IMG/VR virus record: IMGVR_UViG_3300033075_000428
Location: 32,001 to 96,000 of that record
Reading direction: 5' to 3' (one strand)
From: a virus
Taxonomy: Duplodnaviria > Caudoviricetes
DNA length: 64,000 nucleotides
Position 1 is the stretch's first letter; the number at the start of each line of letters is the position of its first letter. Shown piece by piece: positions 4,004-50,832 of the stretch. Under the pieces are notes generated by a model, which did not search any database, was not told where the DNA came from, and worked only from the letters and a program-made list of their open reading frames with translations. The translations under genes were made by a program, and so were the position numbers.

Positions 4004-4567
4004 TCAATTGCCTCTGTTCGATTTCATCTGTAAGAGACGTTGAGCTTGGTAGTGAGTCTCACAAAGTTGCTTTGCACGTTCGTGGAAAGGTGAATCACCT
4101 TCGCAGAGTACACCTTCCTCGTCAGAAACGAATCTCCAAGTATAGATACTGTTGCTATTCCTAGTGACTCGATAGTATGTACCCTGTATTAACCCCTCAG
4201 CATAGGCACTGCCAGAAGGGTGTGTTTCCCATAGAAGTTTCTCAGAAGTGACCACAACTTTCTCAGTCCAAGATTCAATATTGGCAATCAGTTTATTGAA
4301 CTCATCCCTATTGTGCTCGTCACAGATTGATTTTGCGTCAGCAAACGAATATGATTCACCGATTGTACTGCTTGCGTTGATTCCAAACTGCTTAAATTCG
4401 ATGACGATTATCTCTGGCAAGAATCCAAGTGTGTAGTACCCTGTGATACCCTTATACGAGAGAGCAGTAAACTCTTTCGGTTCACCATTTACTTGAAAGA
4501 AACGTGATTCATGCTCTCCGTTTTCAAGCTCCTTACACGTCCTATTGAACTTATCAGACATGCTCAT
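4004..4567 (-). CDS. hypothetical protein with two copies of the 'AKxxCxxH' domain
   Basis: DAKSICDEHN and RAKQLCETHY repeats. Confidence 0.65.
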   Translation of the reverse strand: MSMSDKFNRTCKELENGEHESRFFQVNGEPKEFTALSYKGITGYYTLGFLPEIIVIEFKQFGINASSTIGESYSFADAKSICDEHNRDEFNKLIANIESWTEKVVVTSEKLLWETHPSGSAYAEGLIQGTYYRVTRNSNSIYTWRFVSDEEGVLCEGDSPFHERAKQLCETHYQAQRLLQMKSNRGN

Positions 4568-4911
4568 TCGCCCTTCTTCTTCTTCTTTTTGACAGTCACC
4601 TTAGCAGACTTGTTCTCAGTTCTCACCAACTTCCCTGTCGTTCTGTCACGATACATTGGAAGTTTCAGTACAGTAGGTGGCTTCTCCTCTTTCTGCTTCT
4701 TCTTGCTCTTCACCTTGATTTGTATCGGCATATACCACAAGACGTCGTCTTGAGGAACAAGTAATCCCCATTCCCAGAAGTAACAAATTGCAGTGGAAGC
4801 TGAGATGCGACCGTCTCGATGTTTACACAGCACAATCTGGCTGTCGGGGACAGGTGATTCCCCACCATGGTGGGGAATGAATTCAGACTCATCAACCTTC
4901 AACGTTACCAT
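4564..4911 (-). CDS. hypothetical protein ('HxGG..P' family, Lys-rich tail)
   Basis: HHGGESP...RDG...WEW. Confidence 0.65.
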   Translation of the reverse strand: MVTLKVDESEFIPHHGGESPVPDSQIVLCKHRDGRISASTAICYFWEWGLLVPQDDVLWYMPIQIKVKSKKKQKEEKPPTVLKLPMYRDRTTGKLVRTENKSAKVTVKKKKKKGE

Positions 4912-5833: not shown

Positions 5834-6155
5834 GAGTCATTCGCTCATAGATTATGAACTCAGGTTCTGATTGCAAAATCTCAGCGTCTGCTGGGACTTC
5901 TGGAAAGAACTTGACATCATTAATATCTATCTCATTGACAGTAACAATTGTCTGACCTAATTTCAGTCCTGCTGAAAAGTCATAAAGTGCAGAGTGCACC
6001 CAGTTAAGGAGTTGCTCTTTTGATGCAAACTTTATGTTTGTGCTGATATCAATTGTTCCTTCGGTACATCCGTCAGAATCTAGGTCAATATCAATGGCAA
6101 AATGAAAACACATAATACTCTCTCTGTTGGTTATTATACAATCTCGTGAGACCAC
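5802..6155 (-). CDS. hypothetical protein
   Basis: Packed ORF; start uncertain. Confidence 0.5.
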   Translation of the reverse strand: MVSRDCIITNRESIMCFHFAIDIDLDSDGCTEGTIDISTNIKFASKEQLLNWVHSALYDFSAGLKLGQTIVTVNEIDINDVKFFPEVPADAEILQSEPEFIIYERMTLESKRDEDHN

Positions 6156-6559
6156 GCATGAACTTTGATATAAATTCCTGAAGTACTCTGTGGTTTACGA
6201 AATGCGGAAGCGTCACCACGTTGCACCTTTCGCAATGATTCTATCGATGCAGCAAAAGTATACTCCACATCAGCCCATACTTCACCACTCTCAGGAAGAG
6301 TGTCGGTTGGCTGTGGATTCAACAGACGAACGTGTTCGTCAGCAACTGATGCGGCGTATGCCCATGCAAGGAATTCACCTGTTCTACCACTGCCACTACG
6401 AAACAACATTTCATAGTCGCTAAACTCGAACAAACCTATGCTAGGTGGTCGTGGAGAAGAGTCCCAAGGTTGCTGTAAGATATACTCAAAGTGCAATCGA
6501 GTACCATCGCGAAAACTCTCTGGGAGAGTACTCATTGGTTGTGGGTCAATTAGCCGCAT
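6134..6559 (-). CDS. hypothetical protein, tandem 'PQPxxTLP' domains
   Basis: RLIDPQPMSTLP...AWA and RLLNPQPTDTLP...AWS. Confidence 0.7.
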   Translation of the reverse strand: MRLIDPQPMSTLPESFRDGTRLHFEYILQQPWDSSPRPPSIGLFEFSDYEMLFRSGSGRTGEFLAWAYAASVADEHVRLLNPQPTDTLPESGEVWADVEYTFAASIESLRKVQRGDASAFRKPQSTSGIYIKVHAWSHEIV

Positions 6560-21114: not shown

Positions 21115-21191
21115 TGGTACTCCCTACTGGACTCGAACCAGTGACCTACAGCTTAGAAGGCTGTTGCTCTATCCAACTGAGCTAAGGGAGC
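21115..21191 (-). tRNA. trnR: tRNA-Arg (anticodon UCU)
   Basis: GCTCCCT-TA-GCTC AGTTGGATA GAGC-A-ACAGC CT TCT AA GCTGT-AGGTC-ACTGG TTCGAGT CCAGT-AGGGAGT-ACCA; complete cloverleaf with encoded CCA. Confidence 0.97.
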
Positions 21192-27690: not shown

Positions 27691-28335
27691 TTACTTGAAG
27701 ACTTTACTGAGGAAGAACTTTCTGACCAACTGCTCGTCGAGACACTCCATTGTCTTGCGCCAGTTCACGATGTTCGTCAATCTTGGTTCAGCACACGCTG
27801 TACCGTATACCCACATGAACCCTTGAAACGAACGTATCCCATACGAACCTAGTTCAACAAGTTCAAATTCCTTCGACGGTGGAACGTTCACCACAGCACA
27901 GATGTCGTAGCCATTTCCTTCGTCGTTTTCAACAATGTCACAGTCAACGTACCGACGAAAGAATTCCAATGCTGATTTCATCACCAGTTCCAACTCAGCC
28001 ATTGCAGTAAGCTCATTCACTGCAGAAGAAATCAGTTCATTCTTGAGGAAGTACTTCGTGTGCAGGAAGTCGAATGATTCTTTCCGAAAGCAGGGTGTCA
28101 CCGTCTGGAACCGTCCTTGGGGCAAGAACCCTTTGGACTGCAAGTAAAGGAACGACTGTTCACCCGACGCAACTAGGACTTTCCCGTCAGGGTGAACGAG
28201 TTGAAAGTCTTCTCGGTCAGAGGGTTTCGTGATGGCAGAGATTGCCTTCGTAACAGTCCAAGGGCTTTCGATTCTTGTGTACCCAATGTTCGTAAAGAAC
28301 TCAATAGAGTCCTGAATCTTTTGATAGTCAATCAT
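27691..28335 (-). CDS. stand-alone class II aminoacyl-tRNA synthetase-like catalytic domain
   Basis: Motif 2-like TPCFRxE...YFLKxE; ELGSYG; motif 3-like GTACAEPR; no anticodon-binding domain (214 aa). Confidence 0.7.
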   Translation of the reverse strand: MIDYQKIQDSIEFFTNIGYTRIESPWTVTKAISAITKPSDREDFQLVHPDGKVLVASGEQSFLYLQSKGFLPQGRFQTVTPCFRKESFDFLHTKYFLKNELISSAVNELTAMAELELVMKSALEFFRRYVDCDIVENDEGNGYDICAVVNVPPSKEFELVELGSYGIRSFQGFMWVYGTACAEPRLTNIVNWRKTMECLDEQLVRKFFLSKVFK

Positions 28336-29185: not shown

Positions 29186-29247
29186 ATTAGTTGACAGCTA
29201 AGTGCGCGGGTTGGCACCCTTGGAAGAACGAGCAACCAAGCGAATAC

Positions 29248-29282
29248 AAAAATCCCCACAGTGCGTTACCAAAGTGGGGATT
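29248..29282 (-). terminator. intrinsic terminator closing the Y RNA cassette
   Basis: AATCCCCAC...GTGGGGATT followed by TTT; a second hairpin GTAGTGATG/CATCACTAC lies at 29294-29319. Confidence 0.7.
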
Positions 29283-29341
29283 GCTGGCTTACAGTAGTGA
29301 TGTCTATACCCATCACTACCACCAGTGAGGCAAAATACAAG

Positions 29342-29468
29342 TTCTAACAGGAACAGTCGCTAACGGAAATTAAGTGCTCTACCAACTGAGCTACAAGCAA
29401 TTGCTCGCTTGACAGGACTTGAACCTGCGACAAAAGGAGAAGTATCCGTTGGCTACACCATGTTAGAA
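29342..29468 (-). ncRNA. yrlA: YrlA-like Y RNA with permuted tRNA-like domain
   Basis: Terminal stem TTCTAACA/TGTTAGAA; TGGTGTAG, GATACTTC and CTGTTCC motifs; T arm GCAGG-TTCAAGT-CCTGT, closed acceptor CAAGCGA-GCAA-TTGCTTG, D arm GCTC-AGTTGGTA-GAGC. Confidence 0.85.
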
Positions 29469-29522
29469 TCGTTGTGTTTTCAAACGTACTGAAATCAGTA
29501 CAACAGACACTCAATAAATAAC

Positions 29523-29663
29523 CCTGTAGGAACAGGCGTTGACGGGCTTTTGTGACCACTTGTTTTGCCAGTTAAACTACAAGATTATAGAAATCTTGGA
29601 AGGATTTGAACCTTCAATCAGCGGTTTTTTGTTACGAAGTAACCGTTAACTACACCATACAGG
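29523..29663 (-). ncRNA. yrlA: YrlA-like Y RNA with permuted tRNA-like domain
   Basis: Terminal stem CCTGTA/TACAGG; same three motifs; T arm GAAGG-TTCAAAT-CCTTC, closed acceptor CAAGATT-TCTAT-AATCTTG, D arm GTTT...AAAC. Confidence 0.85.
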
Positions 29664-29718
29664 TATCATTGAGTTTTCAAATGTACTGTTGACAGTACAA
29701 CAAGCAGTCAAAAATAAA

Positions 29719-29788
29719 ACCGACAGGAACAGGCGTCTACGGGTTGTGGTTCATAACGTGAAGTAACCGTTGACTACACCATGTCAGT
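29719..29788 (-). ncRNA. short Y RNA (putative Ro-binding stem only)
   Basis: GACA-TGGTGTAG-TCAACGG-TTACTTC...CCGTAGA-CGC-CTGTTCC-TGTC; no tRNA module. Confidence 0.75.
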
Positions 29789-29789
29789 C

Positions 29790-30113
29790 TTACTTGGGGG
29801 TATCCGAGGGACGAATGGTTACGTTGGCAGCGTTGATTGTTACTTCATTCGCTGTTGCCGCAACTCCTGGTACATAGTTTGTACCAGTCAATGTGTCGTT
29901 GTTACTAGTTCCTGAGCTCTTAGTGCCCGTATCACCAGAGGTGATGACGTCAAGTGCCATGAAGTTGAATTCATGCTGTGCAGGATAGTTCTCTTGAAAC
30001 CAGACACAAACACACATACCATTTGGACGGATATCATTCACCGTCATGCTTGGGCTTCCCGTCTTCAGACGGACGATGTCTCCAATTTTCACGCTGTCTG
30101 TTGTAACAAGCAT
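29790..30113 (-). CDS. YodC/DUF2158-like small protein
   Basis: KIGDIVRLKTGSPSMTV...CVWF...F...L. Confidence 0.75.
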   Translation of the reverse strand: MLVTTDSVKIGDIVRLKTGSPSMTVNDIRPNGMCVCVWFQENYPAQHEFNFMALDVITSGDTGTKSSGTSNNDTLTGTNYVPGVAATANEVTINAANVTIRPSDTPK

Positions 30114-30144
30114 GTCTCAATCCAAATTTCTGTTTTAAAAATGA

Positions 30145-30219
30145 AAGCGGCTAGGAACAGACGCAAGTAGGTGATTTCGTGCAAATGTGAAGTAACCCAC
30201 CGCTACACCATAGACGCTT
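30145..30219 (-). ncRNA. short Y RNA (putative Ro-binding stem only)
   Basis: AAGCGTCTA-TGGTGTAG...GTTACTTC...CTGTTCC-TAGCCGCTT. Confidence 0.75.
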
Positions 30220-30281
30220 ACAATACATAGAACGGGTTGAAATTCTTAGAGCCTTTTCTCGAGGCTACCAGAAGAAAAGAT

Positions 30282-30947
30282 TCAGGTCACTGAAACCAAG
30301 TCTTTTGGACTGATGTTCAAGTGGAATGTCTGAATCAGTCCAGGGAGTTTCCTTGCGTCGATTTGAACCACACCAGCAGTGTCTGGCAAGTAGACTTCAA
30401 TGTAATTCAAGTCAGTGTCAAGAGTCTTGGTTGACTTCTCATACAATGGGTACTCGTCAATGTAGACGTACAACTCACCAGATGACTCGAACACGTCTCC
30501 ATGTGACAGAAGTGCTTGAGTCTTTGGGGTGGTCTGAATCTTCCCAGTCTGCATCAAGCTGATAACTCGAGACACAATGATTCCAGCGGAACTCTTGTGT
30601 GCCTTGATGTCGTTGATGAGTCGAGCAAGCAGTTCATCTTTCTTCCCAAACGGGAACTCATGCTCAGCTTCGTCAACTACACTTCTGAGTCCTGCATTGT
30701 CAACAGCAATAAGTGCCTTGCTCCCATTGCCTGCAATGTCAGTAACAAATCGATACAACGAGTTAACATCAAAGCGATTAGCAACGTGGGCTGAATCAGG
30801 GAACTTCGCTTTTGCTCTCTTCAGTGAAGTGAACAAGTCAGCGGAAGTTGAGAAAGAATACACTGGACTGTCACGCTTCTGGTACTCAACGAAGTACCTA
30901 CCAAGCGACTTGTCTAGTGTGATGCTTACCAGAAACTCTTTCACCAA
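30282..30947 (-). CDS. hypothetical protein
   Basis: 221-aa ORF. Confidence 0.65.
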   Translation of the reverse strand: MVKEFLVSITLDKSLGRYFVEYQKRDSPVYSFSTSADLFTSLKRAKAKFPDSAHVANRFDVNSLYRFVTDIAGNGSKALIAVDNAGLRSVVDEAEHEFPFGKKDELLARLINDIKAHKSSAGIIVSRVISLMQTGKIQTTPKTQALLSHGDVFESSGELYVYIDEYPLYEKSTKTLDTDLNYIEVYLPDTAGVVQIDARKLPGLIQTFHLNISPKDLVSVT

Positions 30948-47907: not shown

Positions 47908-50832
47908 TTACACTGCAATGCAGTTTACTGTAAAAGTTCCATTAGCGCCGAGTGGTGCATGTGCTCGAATGGTACAACCAGTTCCGTTCACAATGCTCTC
48001 TGCAGCAGCCTGAATGCACTGAATCAAAGCGTCTTCACCTTGAACAGTACACACTATTTTCATTGACGTTGTGATCCACGTTAGACCCGTGACAACCACT
48101 GTGGTGTCAGTATCATCGTTAGTTCCGAAATCAATCGTAGCAGTAAACGAATTACTGGTAGAACCCCATATATAACTACTACCATTGAACATCAGTGCTG
48201 TATTGCTAGCAGGCGCTGACGCTGGTAGTGTAATAGTGTATGACGTTGGAGACGAAACACCCAGACCAATGTAGTTAGAGGTAGTCCCAATTCTGAATTC
48301 GTTCGGTAGGAACCTAAAGTACTCAACGTCGGTACCAACGTTAGACAATGCAATTGCCATCGCCCCAATACGTGAACCGTGTGTGGCGTTTGCCCACAGA
48401 CCTGCGATTGAAGACGCAAATATGTCGCTTGTAGTAGTAGTTGCGAGACGAAACACAATAGAACCACCAAACCCATTCGCAGAGGTTCCAGAGTTATTCA
48501 TCTCGATGCTCAATGCTTCCTGCACACTATTGGTCACACTTGTGTAATGACGCAGTGCTTGTAACGACGAGGTGTTCGCTGTCGACTTGGCTACGGTTAG
48601 CTTTTTGGTAGTATCATCCCAGAAGAACTGGGCACTGCTACCGAATGCTCCAGAGTTGTTGAACTGTATCTCAGTATTACTACCAGCTGGCGAGACCGAA
48701 ACTGAAGCCCATACGTAGCTTGAACCATTGTACTTCAGATAGGTATTCGACCCAGGAGCACTGTCTGGCAACGTGATAGTGTATGACGTTGGTGCATTTA
48801 CCGCAAGACCAATATAGCTACCAGTGTTACCAATTCGATGCTCTTTTGGTAGGAATCTATGTTGTTCCGTTGAGGAAGAGGATGAGTTGTTAAGCTCTAA
48901 TGTAAATGCACTGACTTCCGAGCCTGATGTAGTTGTTATCATTAACCAACCAAGCCTATGGCTATCTATTAGCCCACCAGAGCTATTCGTAGAAGAAAAT
49001 AGAAAGTGACCACCGAATCCTGAAGCAGTACCACTAGCACAGTTAGCAACAAAATTAACTATTTTCTGAGAAGAGTTATTAAAGCTAAGAGTCTTAGAAA
49101 CTTTCAGTGCATATGTACTAGCGTCACCTGAAATATGGTTAACTTGAAGTACATCATATCCAGATTGATTTGACTGGAATATTGACAAGCAATTCTGAAT
49201 TGACATGTAAGAATAAGCAGCACCTGTGGCGATGGTTGCTAGTCTGAATTGACTATCATTGACAATTTTTCCAGAACCGTTATCGAACAGTATGCCTCTC
49301 GCGCCACCACCTGACCAGTCTGTGGTTCCACTTGTCAATGCGTCTAGGGTGATATTCCTATTAGGCATCGTTACTGTGCGAACAGTCGCTGTAGTAATAC
49401 CAGAAGCTTCAAATGCTATCTTCTTAGTCGCATCTGTGTTGTCTGAAATGCGGAATACGTTGTCAGCGAAGTCTGGAGTCAAGCTAACAGTAGCCCAAAC
49501 ATAGCTAGAACCATTGTACTTGAGGTACGTGTCAGAAGCTGGGGCAGAACCTGGAAGCGTGATGGTATAAGAAGTAGGTGCAGAGACAGTGAGCCCTACA
49601 TAGTTACCACTGGTACCAATTCGAATAGTACTGTCAACAGCAAAGACGAATCCTGAGTTATCCCAAGTAAGCTTTGAAGAATTCGCAACCTTGCTGGAAC
49701 CATCAGCAAACAACACTCCTGTGCTTGCACCACCTGACCAGTCTGTTGTTCCTGAGGTGATTTGGTCAAGAGAGAAATCACGATTTGGAACAGTAGCAGT
49801 ACGAGTCGTAGCAGTAGTGATTGCACTGACTTCAAATGCGAACTTCTTTGTAGCGTCTGCGTTGTCTACTACACGAAATACGTTGTCTGCGTATTCGTTC
49901 ACTGAGGTGACGGTACCAGTTGCCCAAGTGTAGTTAGCACCATCATACTTTAGGTATGTATTGGTTCCTGGAGCGGCACTTGGAAGAGTAATAGTGTAAG
50001 AAGTAGGAGAAGAGACAGTCAGGCCAACATAAGATGTGTTACTTCCAATTTGGAGCACACCTTGTCCTGTCATTCTGAACTTCTCAGCAAATACTGCGTT
50101 GTTTGCAATACGGAATGCGAGAGCACCAGTTCTTGTGGCGTCAGTTACGTCTGACCAGAATCCGTCAAGATACACAAGGTCACGTTCAGAACCACCATTG
50201 GTCTTTCCGAACCAACCCAGTGACATGCCATAGCCATTTGTTGGAGTTCCCGAAGACGGATTGAGGTTCAAGAACAACCCATATTTCAACCCAGATGGGG
50301 AAGCATCACGAGAGTTCACCCATAATATAGCGGCTCCATTACCAGTAGAAGTGAAGTTCCCAACCCCAGCGCCACCACCACCTGAAACATAGAGACCTTC
50401 TTGAGATCCAAAACTATAGTAAAGTATGTTTGAAGATGTTTTTAGCTTACCAGTTGCAGCATCGGAATAAAGGATACCGTTATTAGAGCCAGACGAAACA
50501 CTTCCAGTTATTGAAGTTGTGGAATCAACCAGTGTGTCCAATGTGACATTTCTGTCAGGCATTGTGATGGTACGTACTGTCGCAGTAGTAATACCACTAG
50601 CTTGGAATGCTATCTTCTTGGTCGAGTCACCGTCGTCTGAGATGCGAAACACGTTGTCTGCGAAGTCTGTTCCACCACCCAAGGAAACCCACGAGCCACC
50701 TTGACGAAAGCGGAAACCATTCGATGCGTAATAAACGATGTCACCATCACTTGGGCTGACTGGCAGTGAGCCCAAGTTGGTGAATCGTAGAGTGTTAGCA
50801 ACTTCAGCGAGTTGACTGAGTATCTTAGGCAT
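47908..50832 (-). CDS. tail fibre protein with internal repeats
   Basis: Three (D/E)(F/Y)ADNVFR...KK.AF..S.ITTAT.RT repeats; four IG...Y.GL.V..PTSYTITLP repeats; PAGSNTEIQFN. Confidence 0.75.
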   Translation of the reverse strand: MPKILSQLAEVANTLRFTNLGSLPVSPSDGDIVYYASNGFRFRQGGSWVSLGGGTDFADNVFRISDDGDSTKKIAFQASGITTATVRTITMPDRNVTLDTLVDSTTSITGSVSSGSNNGILYSDAATGKLKTSSNILYYSFGSQEGLYVSGGGGAGVGNFTSTGNGAAILWVNSRDASPSGLKYGLFLNLNPSSGTPTNGYGMSLGWFGKTNGGSERDLVYLDGFWSDVTDATRTGALAFRIANNAVFAEKFRMTGQGVLQIGSNTSYVGLTVSSPTSYTITLPSAAPGTNTYLKYDGANYTWATGTVTSVNEYADNVFRVVDNADATKKFAFEVSAITTATTRTATVPNRDFSLDQITSGTTDWSGGASTGVLFADGSSKVANSSKLTWDNSGFVFAVDSTIRIGTSGNYVGLTVSAPTSYTITLPGSAPASDTYLKYNGSSYVWATVSLTPDFADNVFRISDNTDATKKIAFEASGITTATVRTVTMPNRNITLDALTSGTTDWSGGGARGILFDNGSGKIVNDSQFRLATIATGAAYSYMSIQNCLSIFQSNQSGYDVLQVNHISGDASTYALKVSKTLSFNNSSQKIVNFVANCASGTASGFGGHFLFSSTNSSGGLIDSHRLGWLMITTTSGSEVSAFTLELNNSSSSSTEQHRFLPKEHRIGNTGSYIGLAVNAPTSYTITLPDSAPGSNTYLKYNGSSYVWASVSVSPAGSNTEIQFNNSGAFGSSAQFFWDDTTKKLTVAKSTANTSSLQALRHYTSVTNSVQEALSIEMNNSGTSANGFGGSIVFRLATTTTSDIFASSIAGLWANATHGSRIGAMAIALSNVGTDVEYFRFLPNEFRIGTTSNYIGLGVSSPTSYTITLPASAPASNTALMFNGSSYIWGSTSNSFTATIDFGTNDDTDTTVVVTGLTWITTSMKIVCTVQGEDALIQCIQAAAESIVNGTGCTIRAHAPLGANGTFTVNCIAV

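What the first reader, a model, noticed from the sequence alone, without database searches (positions are those of the whole stretch)
29342..30219. Phage cassette of four Y RNA-like genes, two carrying a circularly permuted, anticodon-less tRNA mimic
Seen: four minus-strand elements each have a different but self-complementary terminal stem and three invariant motifs (TGGTGTAG, G(A/T)TACTTC, CTGTTCC). The inner stem also varies between copies while mostly keeping its pairing. Two copies (29342-29468, 29523-29663) insert a T arm, then an acceptor-like stem closed by a loop, then a D arm. That is a tRNA in permuted order whose anticodon arm is replaced by the long stem. The other two copies are stem-only. 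A terminator follows the last copy. Established: this architecture defines bacterial YrlA Y RNAs, which bind Ro60/Rsr and usually lie near rsr/rtcB. Inference: the phage expresses a Y RNA array that re-targets or titrates a Ro60 RNP, or acts as an uncleavable tRNA decoy against anti-phage tRNA nucleases. The short copies would be pure Ro60 sponges.
Basis: partly seen in the sequence, partly recalled or inferred. Interest (0 to 1): 0.9.

Follow-up and report, generated by a model that had tools for sequence, protein, structure and literature searches.

The report
Phage Y RNA cassette for Ro60
This 190-kb phage carries four small structured RNA genes of the Y RNA type, two of them displaying a tRNA look-alike; they belong to a large, apparently undescribed RNA family that sits beside the gene for the ring-shaped RNA-binding protein Ro60 in hundreds of phages and some bacteria, so they are most likely that protein's partner RNAs.

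Summary
Four minus-strand elements (30145-30219, 29715-29792, 29523-29663, 29342-29468) share a two-helix handle. It runs: variable closing stem S1, invariant UGGUGUAG, a 7-bp variable stem S2, invariant GWUACUUC, a variable insert, then CG-N-CUGUUCC. Copies C and D insert a T arm, a closed 7-bp acceptor-like hairpin and a D arm, and match Rfam YrlA below its threshold.

Both stems covary across about 150 homologues (91% paired against 45-51% in slid controls).

The link to Ro60 is strong. The phage has its own TROVE+vWA gene about 39 kb away. Of 39 viral records with the RNA, 34 encode TROVE, including all 16 complete ones. In 80 loci chosen by the protein alone, 64 have the RNA within 3 kb, and all 142 hits lie on the gene's strand. 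TROVE is the only recurrent neighbour.

These are therefore Y RNA-type partners of the phage's own Ro60. I found no support for host-Ro60 sponges or for anticodon-nuclease decoys.

Phage Ro60 with Y RNAs is published, so the kind is known. This handle is not: it lacks the published GNCGAA motif, no member reaches Rfam's YrlA threshold, and I found no description of it.

This scan has noted similar handle arrays beside Ro60-like genes on other DNA. Binding and expression remain untested.

The parts
30145..30219 (-). Copy A, short form (75 nt). S1 has one U.C mismatch. Handle motifs at 30203-30210, 30189-30196 and 30154-30160. S2 is irregular, with a 3' bulge. The 3' end is followed by a U-rich tail.
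   Evidence: (R1 55.3 bits, E 2e-13)
29715..29792 (-). Copy B, short form (78 nt). S1 is 8-11 bp. Handle motifs at 29774-29781, 29760-29767 and 29726-29732. It has a small UUCA/UGAA hairpin after UAC. It starts right after the stop codon of the DUF2158 ORF and is followed by UUUUAUUUUU.
   Evidence: (R1 64.7 bits, E 4e-16)
29523..29663 (-). Copy C, long form (141 nt). Handle motifs at 29650-29657, 29636-29643 and 29529-29535. The tRNA-like insert has a T arm at 29599-29615, a 7-bp acceptor-like hairpin with a 5-nt loop at 29580-29598, a UA linker and a D arm at 29562-29577. A short CCGC/GUGG stem encloses the insert.
   Evidence: YrlA 26.5 bits over 29561-29620; tRNA model 17.4 bits; R1 51.8 bits, not in training set
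29342..29468 (-). Copy D, long form (127 nt). Handle motifs at 29453-29460, 29439-29446 and 29350-29356. It has a T arm at 29412-29428, a 7-bp acceptor-like hairpin closed by a GCAA tetraloop at 29394-29411, a UA linker and a canonical D arm at 29376-29391. There is no anticodon arm.
   Evidence: YrlA 41.6 bits, E 1.5e-7, whole model; R1 51.2 bits, not in training set
29663..29704 (-). Conserved spacer upstream of copy C, repeated upstream of copy D. It holds a small GUACUG...CAGUAC hairpin and then UUUGAAAAC. It is a candidate promoter or processing signal; its function is not established.
29466..29506 (-). Second copy of the conserved spacer, upstream of copy D.
29243..29282 (-). Intrinsic-terminator-like hairpin (9-bp G+C-rich stem, then AUUUUUGUAUU) that closes the cassette.
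   Evidence: two-hairpin region 29238-29341, z -4.4; aligned as a terminator stem; missed by the simple scan because its loop is longer than 8 nt

Best explanation
The four elements are genes for Y RNA-type noncoding RNAs that serve the phage's own Ro60 protein. That protein is a 476-aa TROVE+vWA ring protein encoded at genome 20666-22096 on the same strand, about 39 kb away and outside the window.

Each RNA closes its 5' and 3' ends into a handle. The handle runs: variable stem S1, an invariant imperfect helix (UGGUGUAG opposite CG-N-Y-UGUUCC, with bulged nucleotides), a 7-bp stem S2 of fixed length but free sequence, and an invariant UACUUC at the junction.

Inferred: the invariant handle is the docking site for the outer surface of the Ro60 ring, as in known Y RNAs. 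The WUACUUC junction aligns with the conserved CGAAUGCUU region of YrlA.

Inferred: the part beyond the handle is an exchangeable effector module. In C and D it is an L-shaped tRNA mimic (T arm, closed 7-bp acceptor stem, D arm) that should attract a tRNA-binding protein or nuclease. In A and B it is a small hairpin loop. The phage would then assemble several Ro60 particles with different tethered partners. This follows the Rsr-Y RNA-PNPase machine of Deinococcus and Salmonella and the phiLo Ro60-Yrl-PNPase complex, and would reshape RNA degradation or quality control during infection.

Shown here: the motifs, the covarying structure, the tRNA-like modules, and the exclusive genomic linkage of the family to TROVE genes.

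Not shown: transcription, Ro60 binding, the identity of the effector, and any benefit to the phage.
For: Structure: on 19 short forms aligned by MAFFT, 90.7% of cells pair against 42-53% when partners are slid, and 14 of 21 pairs show double changes. On 150 model-collected homologues, 91% pair against 45-51%, and 19 of 20 pairs show double changes. In long forms the T arm, 7-bp acceptor hairpin and D arm also covary.

Window copies: R1 scores 51-65 bits with no other hit in the genome. YrlA partial matches cover C and D.

Partner: a TROVE (E 4e-17) plus vWA protein with an intact DxSxS MIDAS motif. It aligns over residues 26-465 to the solved phiLo Ro60, E 1e-15.

Linkage, RNA-selected sample: 34 of 39 RNA-bearing viral records and 16 of 16 that are at least 90% complete encode TROVE. 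RNA hits lie inside 29 of 30 TROVE loci that extend 1.5 kb either side of the match. TROVE is the only protein cluster recurring within 4 kb of arrays, in 44 of 58 loci, against 4 or fewer for any other real cluster.

Linkage, protein-selected sample: 64 of 80 loci have the RNA within 3 kb, and all 142 hits are on the TROVE strand.

Linkage, cellular genomes: 19 of 26 full elements have TROVE within the fetched 8-kb locus. Of the 94 other pattern matches, 82 have none and 12 have one.

Named phages with the same layout: CcrColossus has 7 copies upstream of gp139 and Xanthomonas phage Olaya has 3-4.

Precedent: Y RNAs tether Ro60 to PNPase, and phage Ro60 binds phage-encoded Y-like RNAs (PMC4201824, PMC12135203).
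Against: No binding or expression data exist for any member of this handle family.

In this phage the cassette is 39 kb from the Ro60 gene, and there is no copy within 6 kb of it. That is atypical for the family.

The published Ro60-contact motif GNCGAAN0-1G is absent. No Rfam Y_RNA match appears and the YrlA matches are below threshold.

Single-sequence folding of A and B is no better than shuffles.

The Ro60-bound RNAs tested in phiLo were picked by a CGAA motif and are not handle-type elements. Experimental support is therefore by analogy only.
Confidence: 0.8

Rival explanations
1. The RNAs work without Ro60 as tRNA decoys or sponges. The tRNA-like modules would soak up host tRNA-targeting defence nucleases or tRNA-modifying enzymes.
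For: C and D keep the tRNA elbow: T loop UUCAA, D loop GG, the UA linker and 7-bp acceptor stems. Many relatives carry a full 17-nt anticodon-arm mimic with U33- and R37-like positions. The cassette is not next to the Ro60 gene in this phage.
Against: C and D have no anticodon loop, and A and B have no tRNA part at all, yet all four keep the same invariant handle. That conservation implies a common protein partner. The family is linked almost exclusively to TROVE genes, always on the same strand. No defence-related gene recurs nearby.
Confidence: 0.07
2. The RNAs target the host's Ro60/Rsr by titrating or re-programming it, rather than the phage protein.
For: Cellular genomes carry the same handle next to their own TROVE genes, so a host Ro60 could recognise it.
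Against: The phage carries its own intact TROVE+vWA gene, and every complete phage record with the RNA does too (16 of 16). That would be unnecessary for a pure sponge. The host is unknown, so whether it has an Rsr is also unknown.
Confidence: 0.05
3. The elements are permuted or split tRNA genes, or leftovers of tRNA genes, that are processed into working tRNAs or tRNA halves.
For: Seven-base-pair acceptor stems occur, as in M. smegmatis YrlA, which RNase P cleaves (PMC4201824). ARAGORN reads a few relatives as tRNAs, and CcrColossus has one annotated as tRNA-Gln.
Against: There is no CCA and no free acceptor end. C and D have no anticodon loop. ARAGORN finds no tRNA here and the tRNA model gives only 17.4 bits. 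Only 4 of 64 long relatives are called tRNA. A and B have no tRNA parts.
Confidence: 0.02
4. The elements are repeats with a cis role only, such as terminators, RNA-stability hairpins or recombination sites, and not trans-acting RNAs.
For: Each S1 stem is followed by a U-rich run. The simple scan calls the end of copy C a terminator. Single-sequence folding z-scores are weak.
Against: Invariant unpaired motifs, a fixed S2 length and embedded tRNA-like domains with conserved tertiary-contact nucleotides are not expected of terminators. The family is conserved across phyla with compensatory changes and is tied to one protein family.
Confidence: 0.03

Closest known systems
YrlA, the bacterial and phage Y RNA-like A (Rfam RF02553; Chen et al. 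2014, PMC4201824; structure in Wang et al. 2018, 10.1101/312249)
   Same: Copies C and D have the same permuted tRNA mimic: T arm, closed acceptor-like stem, UA, D arm and no anticodon loop. The mimic sits on a stem made by the RNA's two ends. Infernal aligns the WUACUUC junction with YrlA's conserved gaAUGCuu. The family is linked to a Ro60/TROVE gene on the same strand. More than one Y RNA per genome occurs, one tRNA-like and one hairpin-like.
   Different: Scores are below Rfam's threshold here and in 12 related loci. The published GNCGAAN0-1G motif is absent. An extra outer module, UGGUGUAG opposite YUGUUCC plus S1, is not in the YrlA model, and YrlA's middle helix is missing. Arrays of 2-7 copies mix short and long forms. 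Many relatives, though not C or D, add a complete anticodon-arm mimic. In this phage the RNAs lie 39 kb from the Ro60 gene.
YrlB / Yrn2-type second Y RNAs (Salmonella, M. smegmatis, D. radiodurans; PMC4201824)
   Same: Copies A and B are short hairpin-type Y RNAs without a tRNA module, encoded beside tRNA-like ones.
   Different: YrlB has no detectable homologues outside its own genus. A and B share the whole handle with C and D and with hundreds of other loci.
Thermus phage phiLo Ro60 with Yrl1 and Yrl2 (PMC12135203; PDB 9KOP, 9L5Y)
   Same: A phage-encoded Ro60, the best solved-structure match of this phage's protein (E 1e-15), works with phage-encoded Y-like RNAs. A ternary complex with host PNPase was shown in vitro.
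   Different: Yrl1 and Yrl2 were chosen by a CGAA motif upstream of the gene and are not handle-type. The only handle-like matches in phiLo are weak (25.8 and 12.7 bits) and lie downstream, inside an annotated CDS.
Metazoan Y RNAs (Rfam RF00019) bound by Ro60
   Same: The general plan matches: ends paired into a stem, and next to it a conserved imperfect helix beginning GG/CC with bulged nucleotides, which in animals is the Ro60 site. A variable distal module follows, and a U-rich 3' tail.
   Different: There is no detectable sequence or model similarity: no RF00019 match at E up to 10. The conserved helix sequence differs. This comparison rests partly on my memory of the animal sequences.

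Membership tests
YrlA (Rfam RF02553) | Score at or above the curated gathering threshold (69 bits) | tested here: not met
   D scores 41.6 bits (E 1.5e-7) and C 26.5 bits. A and B give no match. No relative in 12 loci reaches it either.
YrlA (Chen et al. 2014) | Permuted tRNA-like module: T arm, closed acceptor-like stem, UA, D arm | tested here: met
   Met for C and D, and these helices covary in 28 long forms. Not present in A and B.
YrlA (Chen et al. 2014) | GNCGAAN0-1G motif near the 5' end (proposed Ro60 contact) | tested here: not met
   A regular-expression search of all four copies finds none. The related CGG-W-UACUU is aligned by Infernal to cgaAUGCuu.
YrlA (Chen et al. 2014) | Encoded within about 4 kb of a Ro60/TROVE gene, on the same strand | tested here: not met
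   In this phage the strand is the same but the distance is about 39 kb, with no copy within 6 kb of the gene. At family level the feature is met: 64 of 80 loci have the RNA within 3 kb, and 142 of 142 hits are on the gene's strand.
Y RNA (functional class) | Physically bound by Ro60/Rsr | not testable with these tools
   This needs RIP, CLIP or EMSA. There is only genomic linkage.
Y RNA (functional class) | RNA of 70-140 nt whose 5' and 3' ends pair into a stem carrying a conserved imperfect helix, with a variable distal module | tested here: met
   S1 and S2 covary and the invariant helix lies between them.
Y RNA (functional class) | A Ro60/TROVE protein is encoded by the same genome | tested here: met
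   A 476-aa protein matches TROVE (62.9 bits) and VWA_2, and matches phiLo Ro60 at E 1e-15.
Metazoan Y_RNA (Rfam RF00019) | Match to the covariance model | tested here: not met
   No match at E up to 10 over 29200-30350.
tRNA (RF00005 / ARAGORN) | Cloverleaf in canonical order with an anticodon loop | tested here: not met
   ARAGORN finds only tRNA-Arg at 21115-21191. The tRNA model gives 17.4 bits on copy C, against a gathering score of 29.
TROVE-linked 'handle' RNA family (model R1, built here) | S1, UGGUGUAG, 7-bp S2, GWUACUUC, insert, S2', CG-N-YUGUUCC, S1' | tested here: met
   All four copies score 51-65 bits. There are 156, 106 and 142 hits in the related viral loci, and these three locus sets partly overlap.

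The most novel reading that the evidence does not exclude
The invariant handle (UGGUGUAG opposite YUGUUCC, a fixed 7-bp spacer stem, then UACUUC) is a second, so far undescribed Ro60-recognition code, used by a large clade of phage and bacterial Ro60 proteins. The arrays would then be sets of interchangeable adaptors. One Ro60 ring is loaded with different display modules (bare hairpins, tRNA elbows, or complete tRNA mimics with varied anticodon-like loops), and each brings a different host tRNA-binding enzyme or nuclease to the ring. The phage could use this to re-programme host RNA decay or to counter tRNA-directed defences.

The resemblance of the 5' handle to a tRNA acceptor end, U8-A9 and D region would also fit the proposed origin of Y RNAs from dimeric tRNA transcripts.
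Probability: 0.3. Interest if true: 0.75.

Novelty: new variant of a known kind. Interest (0 to 1): 0.5.

Why it matters
What bacterial and phage Ro60 particles do, and what the tRNA-like part of Y RNAs recruits, are still open questions.

This work defines a large family: several hundred RNA copies in the loci fetched here, and 491 related TROVE genes in viral contigs, from scans that stopped at their limits. The family has a sharply conserved handle and freely exchangeable display modules.

That gives clear targets for mutation (UACUUC, UGGUGUAG, the S2 length). It also offers tractable systems: Caulobacter phage CcrColossus has seven copies and Xanthomonas phage Olaya has three or four.

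It flags annotation problems too. No member tested reaches Rfam's YrlA threshold. At least one element is deposited as a tRNA-Gln gene, and weak matches in phiLo overlap an annotated CDS.

For this phage it shows that the RNAs can be uncoupled from the protein gene by 39 kb.

Tried and rejected
- Rfam at gathering thresholds over the whole window found only tRNA-Arg. With E up to 10 it added only sub-threshold YrlA matches and chance hits.
- blastn of the region against 50,697 phage records found no match.
No reads were laid, so expression is untested.
- RtcB and a CCA-adding enzyme were sought in the phage genome and not found. The rsr-rtcB repair-operon context does not apply.
- I suspected a Bacteroidota-type promoter (TAnnTTTG) in the repeated spacers. 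The motif is not enriched genome-wide (58 and 49 observed against 84 and 62 expected), so I dropped the host inference.
- The sigma-70 scan found no promoter on the minus strand.
- I tested whether the 5' handle folds with the insert into a canonical-order tRNA. Only 4 of 64 long relatives are called tRNA by ARAGORN, and U6 of the handle varies without compensation. This stays a weak evolutionary speculation.
- Pfam and PHROG scans of ten neighbouring ORFs found nothing that recurs with the family.
- A search with the single TROVE protein in viral contigs found only one relative. The alignment-based search was needed.
- The weak R1 hits at window 50293-50383 (17 bits) and genome 170177-170229 (14 bits) were treated as chance.

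Full report
WHAT IS THERE

The window is bases 32001-96000 of a complete 190,353-bp IMG/VR phage record with direct terminal repeats. On the minus strand between 29342 and 30219 lie four elements, A to D, at 30145-30219, 29715-29792, 29523-29663 and 29342-29468. Each holds TGGTGTAG, then exactly six variable bases, then G(A/T)TACTTC, and further on CTGTTCC. This triple combination occurs nowhere else in the genome.

The bases just outside the motifs pair with each other and form stem S1. They differ between copies: 7 of 8 bp in A, 8-11 bp in B, 6 bp in C and 7 bp in D. The six variable bases plus the following G pair with the bases that precede CG-N-CUGUUCC, forming stem S2.

Copies C and D carry an insert between the GWUACUUC junction and S2'. 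It holds a T arm with a UUCAA loop, a 7-bp hairpin in the place of the acceptor stem (closed by a GCAA tetraloop in D), the UA dinucleotide, and a D arm with the GG loop. Copies A and B have only a 15-25 nt loop with a small UUC...GAA hairpin.

About 60 nt after D there is a strong terminator-like hairpin at 29243-29282.

IS IT MORE THAN CHANCE?

Single-sequence folding is not impressive (z -0.9 to -2.2), so I looked for relatives.

The pattern TGGTGTAG-N6-GWTACTTC hits at least 119 viral contigs, and the scan stopped at its limit. About a third of those matches show the full S1/S2 geometry by a strict script.

A MAFFT alignment of 19 short forms gives 90.7% paired cells against 42-53% when the 3' partners are slid. 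Fourteen of 21 pairs have compensatory double changes.

I built a covariance model, R1, from that alignment. It finds all four window copies at 51-65 bits, and C and D were not in the training set. It finds 156 elements in the first 100 viral loci. On the best 150 of these, 91% of cells pair against 45-51% in slid controls, and 19 of 20 pairs show double changes. That alignment is fitted to the model, which favours pairing. The MAFFT result does not have this bias.

In 28 long forms RNAalifold independently recovers S1, S2, the T arm, the 7-bp acceptor hairpin and the D arm. It finds 26 of 32 pairs with compensatory changes.

The motifs were fixed by my first search, so their invariance in that sample proves nothing. 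In a second sample chosen only by the protein (see below), the best-kept positions are U7, G9 and G13 of the 5' motif (92-100%), G-U-UACUUC (90-100%, apart from the W position at 73% U) and UUC of the 3' motif (91-100%).

WHAT IS IT LINKED TO?

The phage encodes a 476-aa TROVE+vWA protein with an intact DxSxS MIDAS motif at genome 20666-22096. It is on the same strand, about 39 kb from the cassette and outside the window. Its best solved relative is the Ro60 of Thermus phage phiLo, E 1e-15 over nearly the full length.

Of 39 viral records that carry full RNA elements, 34 encode TROVE, and so do all 16 that are at least 90% complete. The five without are fragments of 12-21% completeness. R1 hits lie inside 29 of 30 TROVE loci that extend 1.5 kb either side of the protein match.

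I clustered all ORFs within 4 kb of the arrays in 58 loci. Only one real recurrent neighbour emerged, the roughly 440-aa TROVE protein, in 44 loci. The next two clusters are antisense shadow ORFs inside that gene, and everything else occurs in four loci or fewer.

As a control free of RNA-pattern bias, I fetched 80 viral loci by an alignment of TROVE proteins that are 35-53% identical to this phage's. Sixty-four have R1 hits within 3 kb, usually 1-4 copies directly upstream or downstream. All 142 hits lie on the strand of the TROVE gene. Most of the 16 loci without hits look like human-gut crAss-like contigs. In crAss001 a search without filters finds diverged copies right after the TROVE gene.

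The same pattern in bacterial and archaeal genome contigs gives 26 full elements, 19 of them with a TROVE gene in the same fetched 8-kb locus. Among the other 94 matches, 82 have no TROVE gene and 12 do; those 12 are probably variants.

Named phages show the same layout. Caulobacter phage CcrColossus has seven copies directly upstream of gp139 (TROVE), and Xanthomonas phage Olaya has three or four.

WHAT IT MOST LIKELY IS AND DOES

These are Y RNA-type partner RNAs of Ro60. The handle has the general plan of known Y RNAs: paired ends, then a conserved imperfect helix with bulged bases, then a variable distal part. The strict conservation of both invariant modules and of the S2 length between them suggests that one protein reads both at a fixed distance.

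Infernal aligns the CGG-W-UACUU junction with the conserved cgaAUGCuu of the YrlA model. That model region overlaps the published proposed Ro60-contact motif, so the junction is my first candidate for the Ro60 contact. This step is inference.

The distal modules differ: a tRNA elbow in C and D, a small hairpin in A and B. In the published systems the distal module tethers an effector. PNPase fills that role in Deinococcus and Salmonella, and host PNPase does so with phiLo Ro60 in vitro (PMC4201824, PMC12135203). The tRNA-like domain of YrlA folds as an L-shape and was predicted to bind an unknown tRNA-binding factor (10.1101/312249).

My reading is therefore that one phage Ro60 is loaded with four adaptors of two kinds. 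I put about 0.8 on 'Ro60 partner RNAs' and about 0.5 on the tethering mechanism in particular.

The phage has no RtcB and no CCA-adding enzyme, so the bacterial rsr-rtcB repair-operon context does not apply.

RIVALS

- A Ro60-independent decoy role fits poorly. All four RNAs keep the handle, A and B have no tRNA part, and C and D lack an anticodon loop.
- A host-Ro60 sponge role is unnecessary given the phage's own gene.
- Working permuted tRNAs are excluded by the closed acceptor stems and the missing anticodon loops.
- A purely cis role as terminators does not explain the invariant unpaired motifs or the tRNA-like domains.

COMPARISON WITH WHAT IS KNOWN

Ro60 orthologues and YrlA-like RNAs in phages were reported in 2014 (22 phages; PMC4201824). 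According to PMC12135203 these included CcrColossus. A phage Ro60-RNA complex was solved in 2025. The kind is therefore known.

Against the defining features of YrlA:
- The tRNA-like module is met in C and D.
- The Rfam threshold is not met: 41.6 and 26.5 bits against 69, and no relative in 12 loci reaches it.
- The GNCGAAN0-1G motif is absent.
- The within-4-kb rule is not met in this phage, though it holds for the family.

The outer handle module, the frequent arrays of 2-7 mixed copies, and the short forms that share the whole handle are not part of the published description as far as I could read. The 2014 supplement is not held and the 2020 review is not held. Literature searches found no description of this handle.

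I therefore class it as a new variant of a known kind. The window's cassette is an ordinary member of that variant, except for its distance from the Ro60 gene.

Notes from this scan report similar 'handle' RNA arrays beside Ro60-like genes in other phages, and another reader noted the Ro60 gene in this genome. These agree with my independent tests but are not evidence in themselves.

LIMITS

- The host is unknown.
- E-values from R1 are rough because its calibration was shortened.
- The first homologue set was selected by exact motifs.
- The comparison with the animal Ro60 site rests partly on memory.

Noticed in passing
window 29284-29325 (-): A strong hairpin lies between copy D and the terminator. 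Its sequence echoes the handle: UGGUGGUAG, a 6-nt stem strand, GUAUAGAC, the complementary strand, then CUGUAAGCC. It could be a decayed fifth copy or an unrelated stability hairpin. R1 does not detect it at E below 1.
   Followed up: partly
window 29663-29704 and 29466-29506 (-): A spacer of about 41 nt is repeated upstream of copies C and D. It holds an inner GUACUG...CAGUAC hairpin followed by UUUGAAAAC. It may be a promoter or a processing site. It contains TAnnTTTG, but that motif is not enriched genome-wide.
   Followed up: partly
window 29790-30113 (-): A 107-aa DUF2158/YodC-like ORF (Pfam E 3.6e-9) sits between copies A and B, and copy B starts right after its stop codon. No such ORF recurs in other arrays.
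   Followed up: partly
window 27691-28335 (-): A 214-aa protein matches PHROG 4806 'histidyl tRNA synthetase' (E 1e-35), with a weak match to Pfam class II aaRS. It lies about 1 kb downstream of the tRNA-like RNAs. It is not a recurrent neighbour of the family, so the position is probably coincidental.
   Followed up: partly
L159 (Caulobacter phage CcrColossus JX100810) 109217-109284 of the record: The deposited 'tRNA-Gln' lies inside a handle-type element (R1 hit 109124-109288). It is probably that Y-like RNA's anticodon-arm and T-arm portion read as a tRNA.
   Followed up: partly
L281 (Thermus phage phiLo MH673673) locus 4472-4535 and 4663-4740: Two weak handle-like matches (25.8 and 12.7 bits, both with GGGUACUUC and a 3' UUUCC) lie just downstream of the Ro60 gene. 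They overlap the annotated CDS phiLo_25. They are not the published Yrl1 and Yrl2, which lie upstream.
   Followed up: no
L158 (Bacteroides phage crAss001 MH675552) locus 5908-6230: The 900-nt non-coding gap after the TROVE gene gp96 holds two diverged handle elements (34.7 and 24 bits, found only with filters off). It also holds a 144-nt stretch that matches the tRNA model at 46.6 bits.
   Followed up: partly
related loci, e.g. L029:4234-4367, L008:7386-7525, L028:1865-2003, L078:1085-1217: Many long forms have exactly 22 nt between UAC and the T arm: a 5-bp stem, a 7-nt loop and a 5-nt AGGUC-like linker. This is a full anticodon-arm plus variable-loop mimic, with U at loop position 2 and a purine at position 6. 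The 'anticodons' vary (UUU, CUU, UGU, GCG, GUG, GCU, AUU). The window's C and D lack it.
   Followed up: partly
genome 17376-18317 (-), outside the window (L282:2376-3317): A calcineurin-like metallophosphoesterase gene lies about 2.3 kb downstream of the TROVE gene. Two tRNA-Leu genes and a peptide deformylase gene are also nearby. No ubiquitin-like or RtcB genes were seen.
   Followed up: partly
window 50293-50383 (-): A weak R1 match (17.1 bits, E 0.017) has ACUUCAC and UUCCCC but a poor 5' motif. It is probably chance.
   Followed up: no
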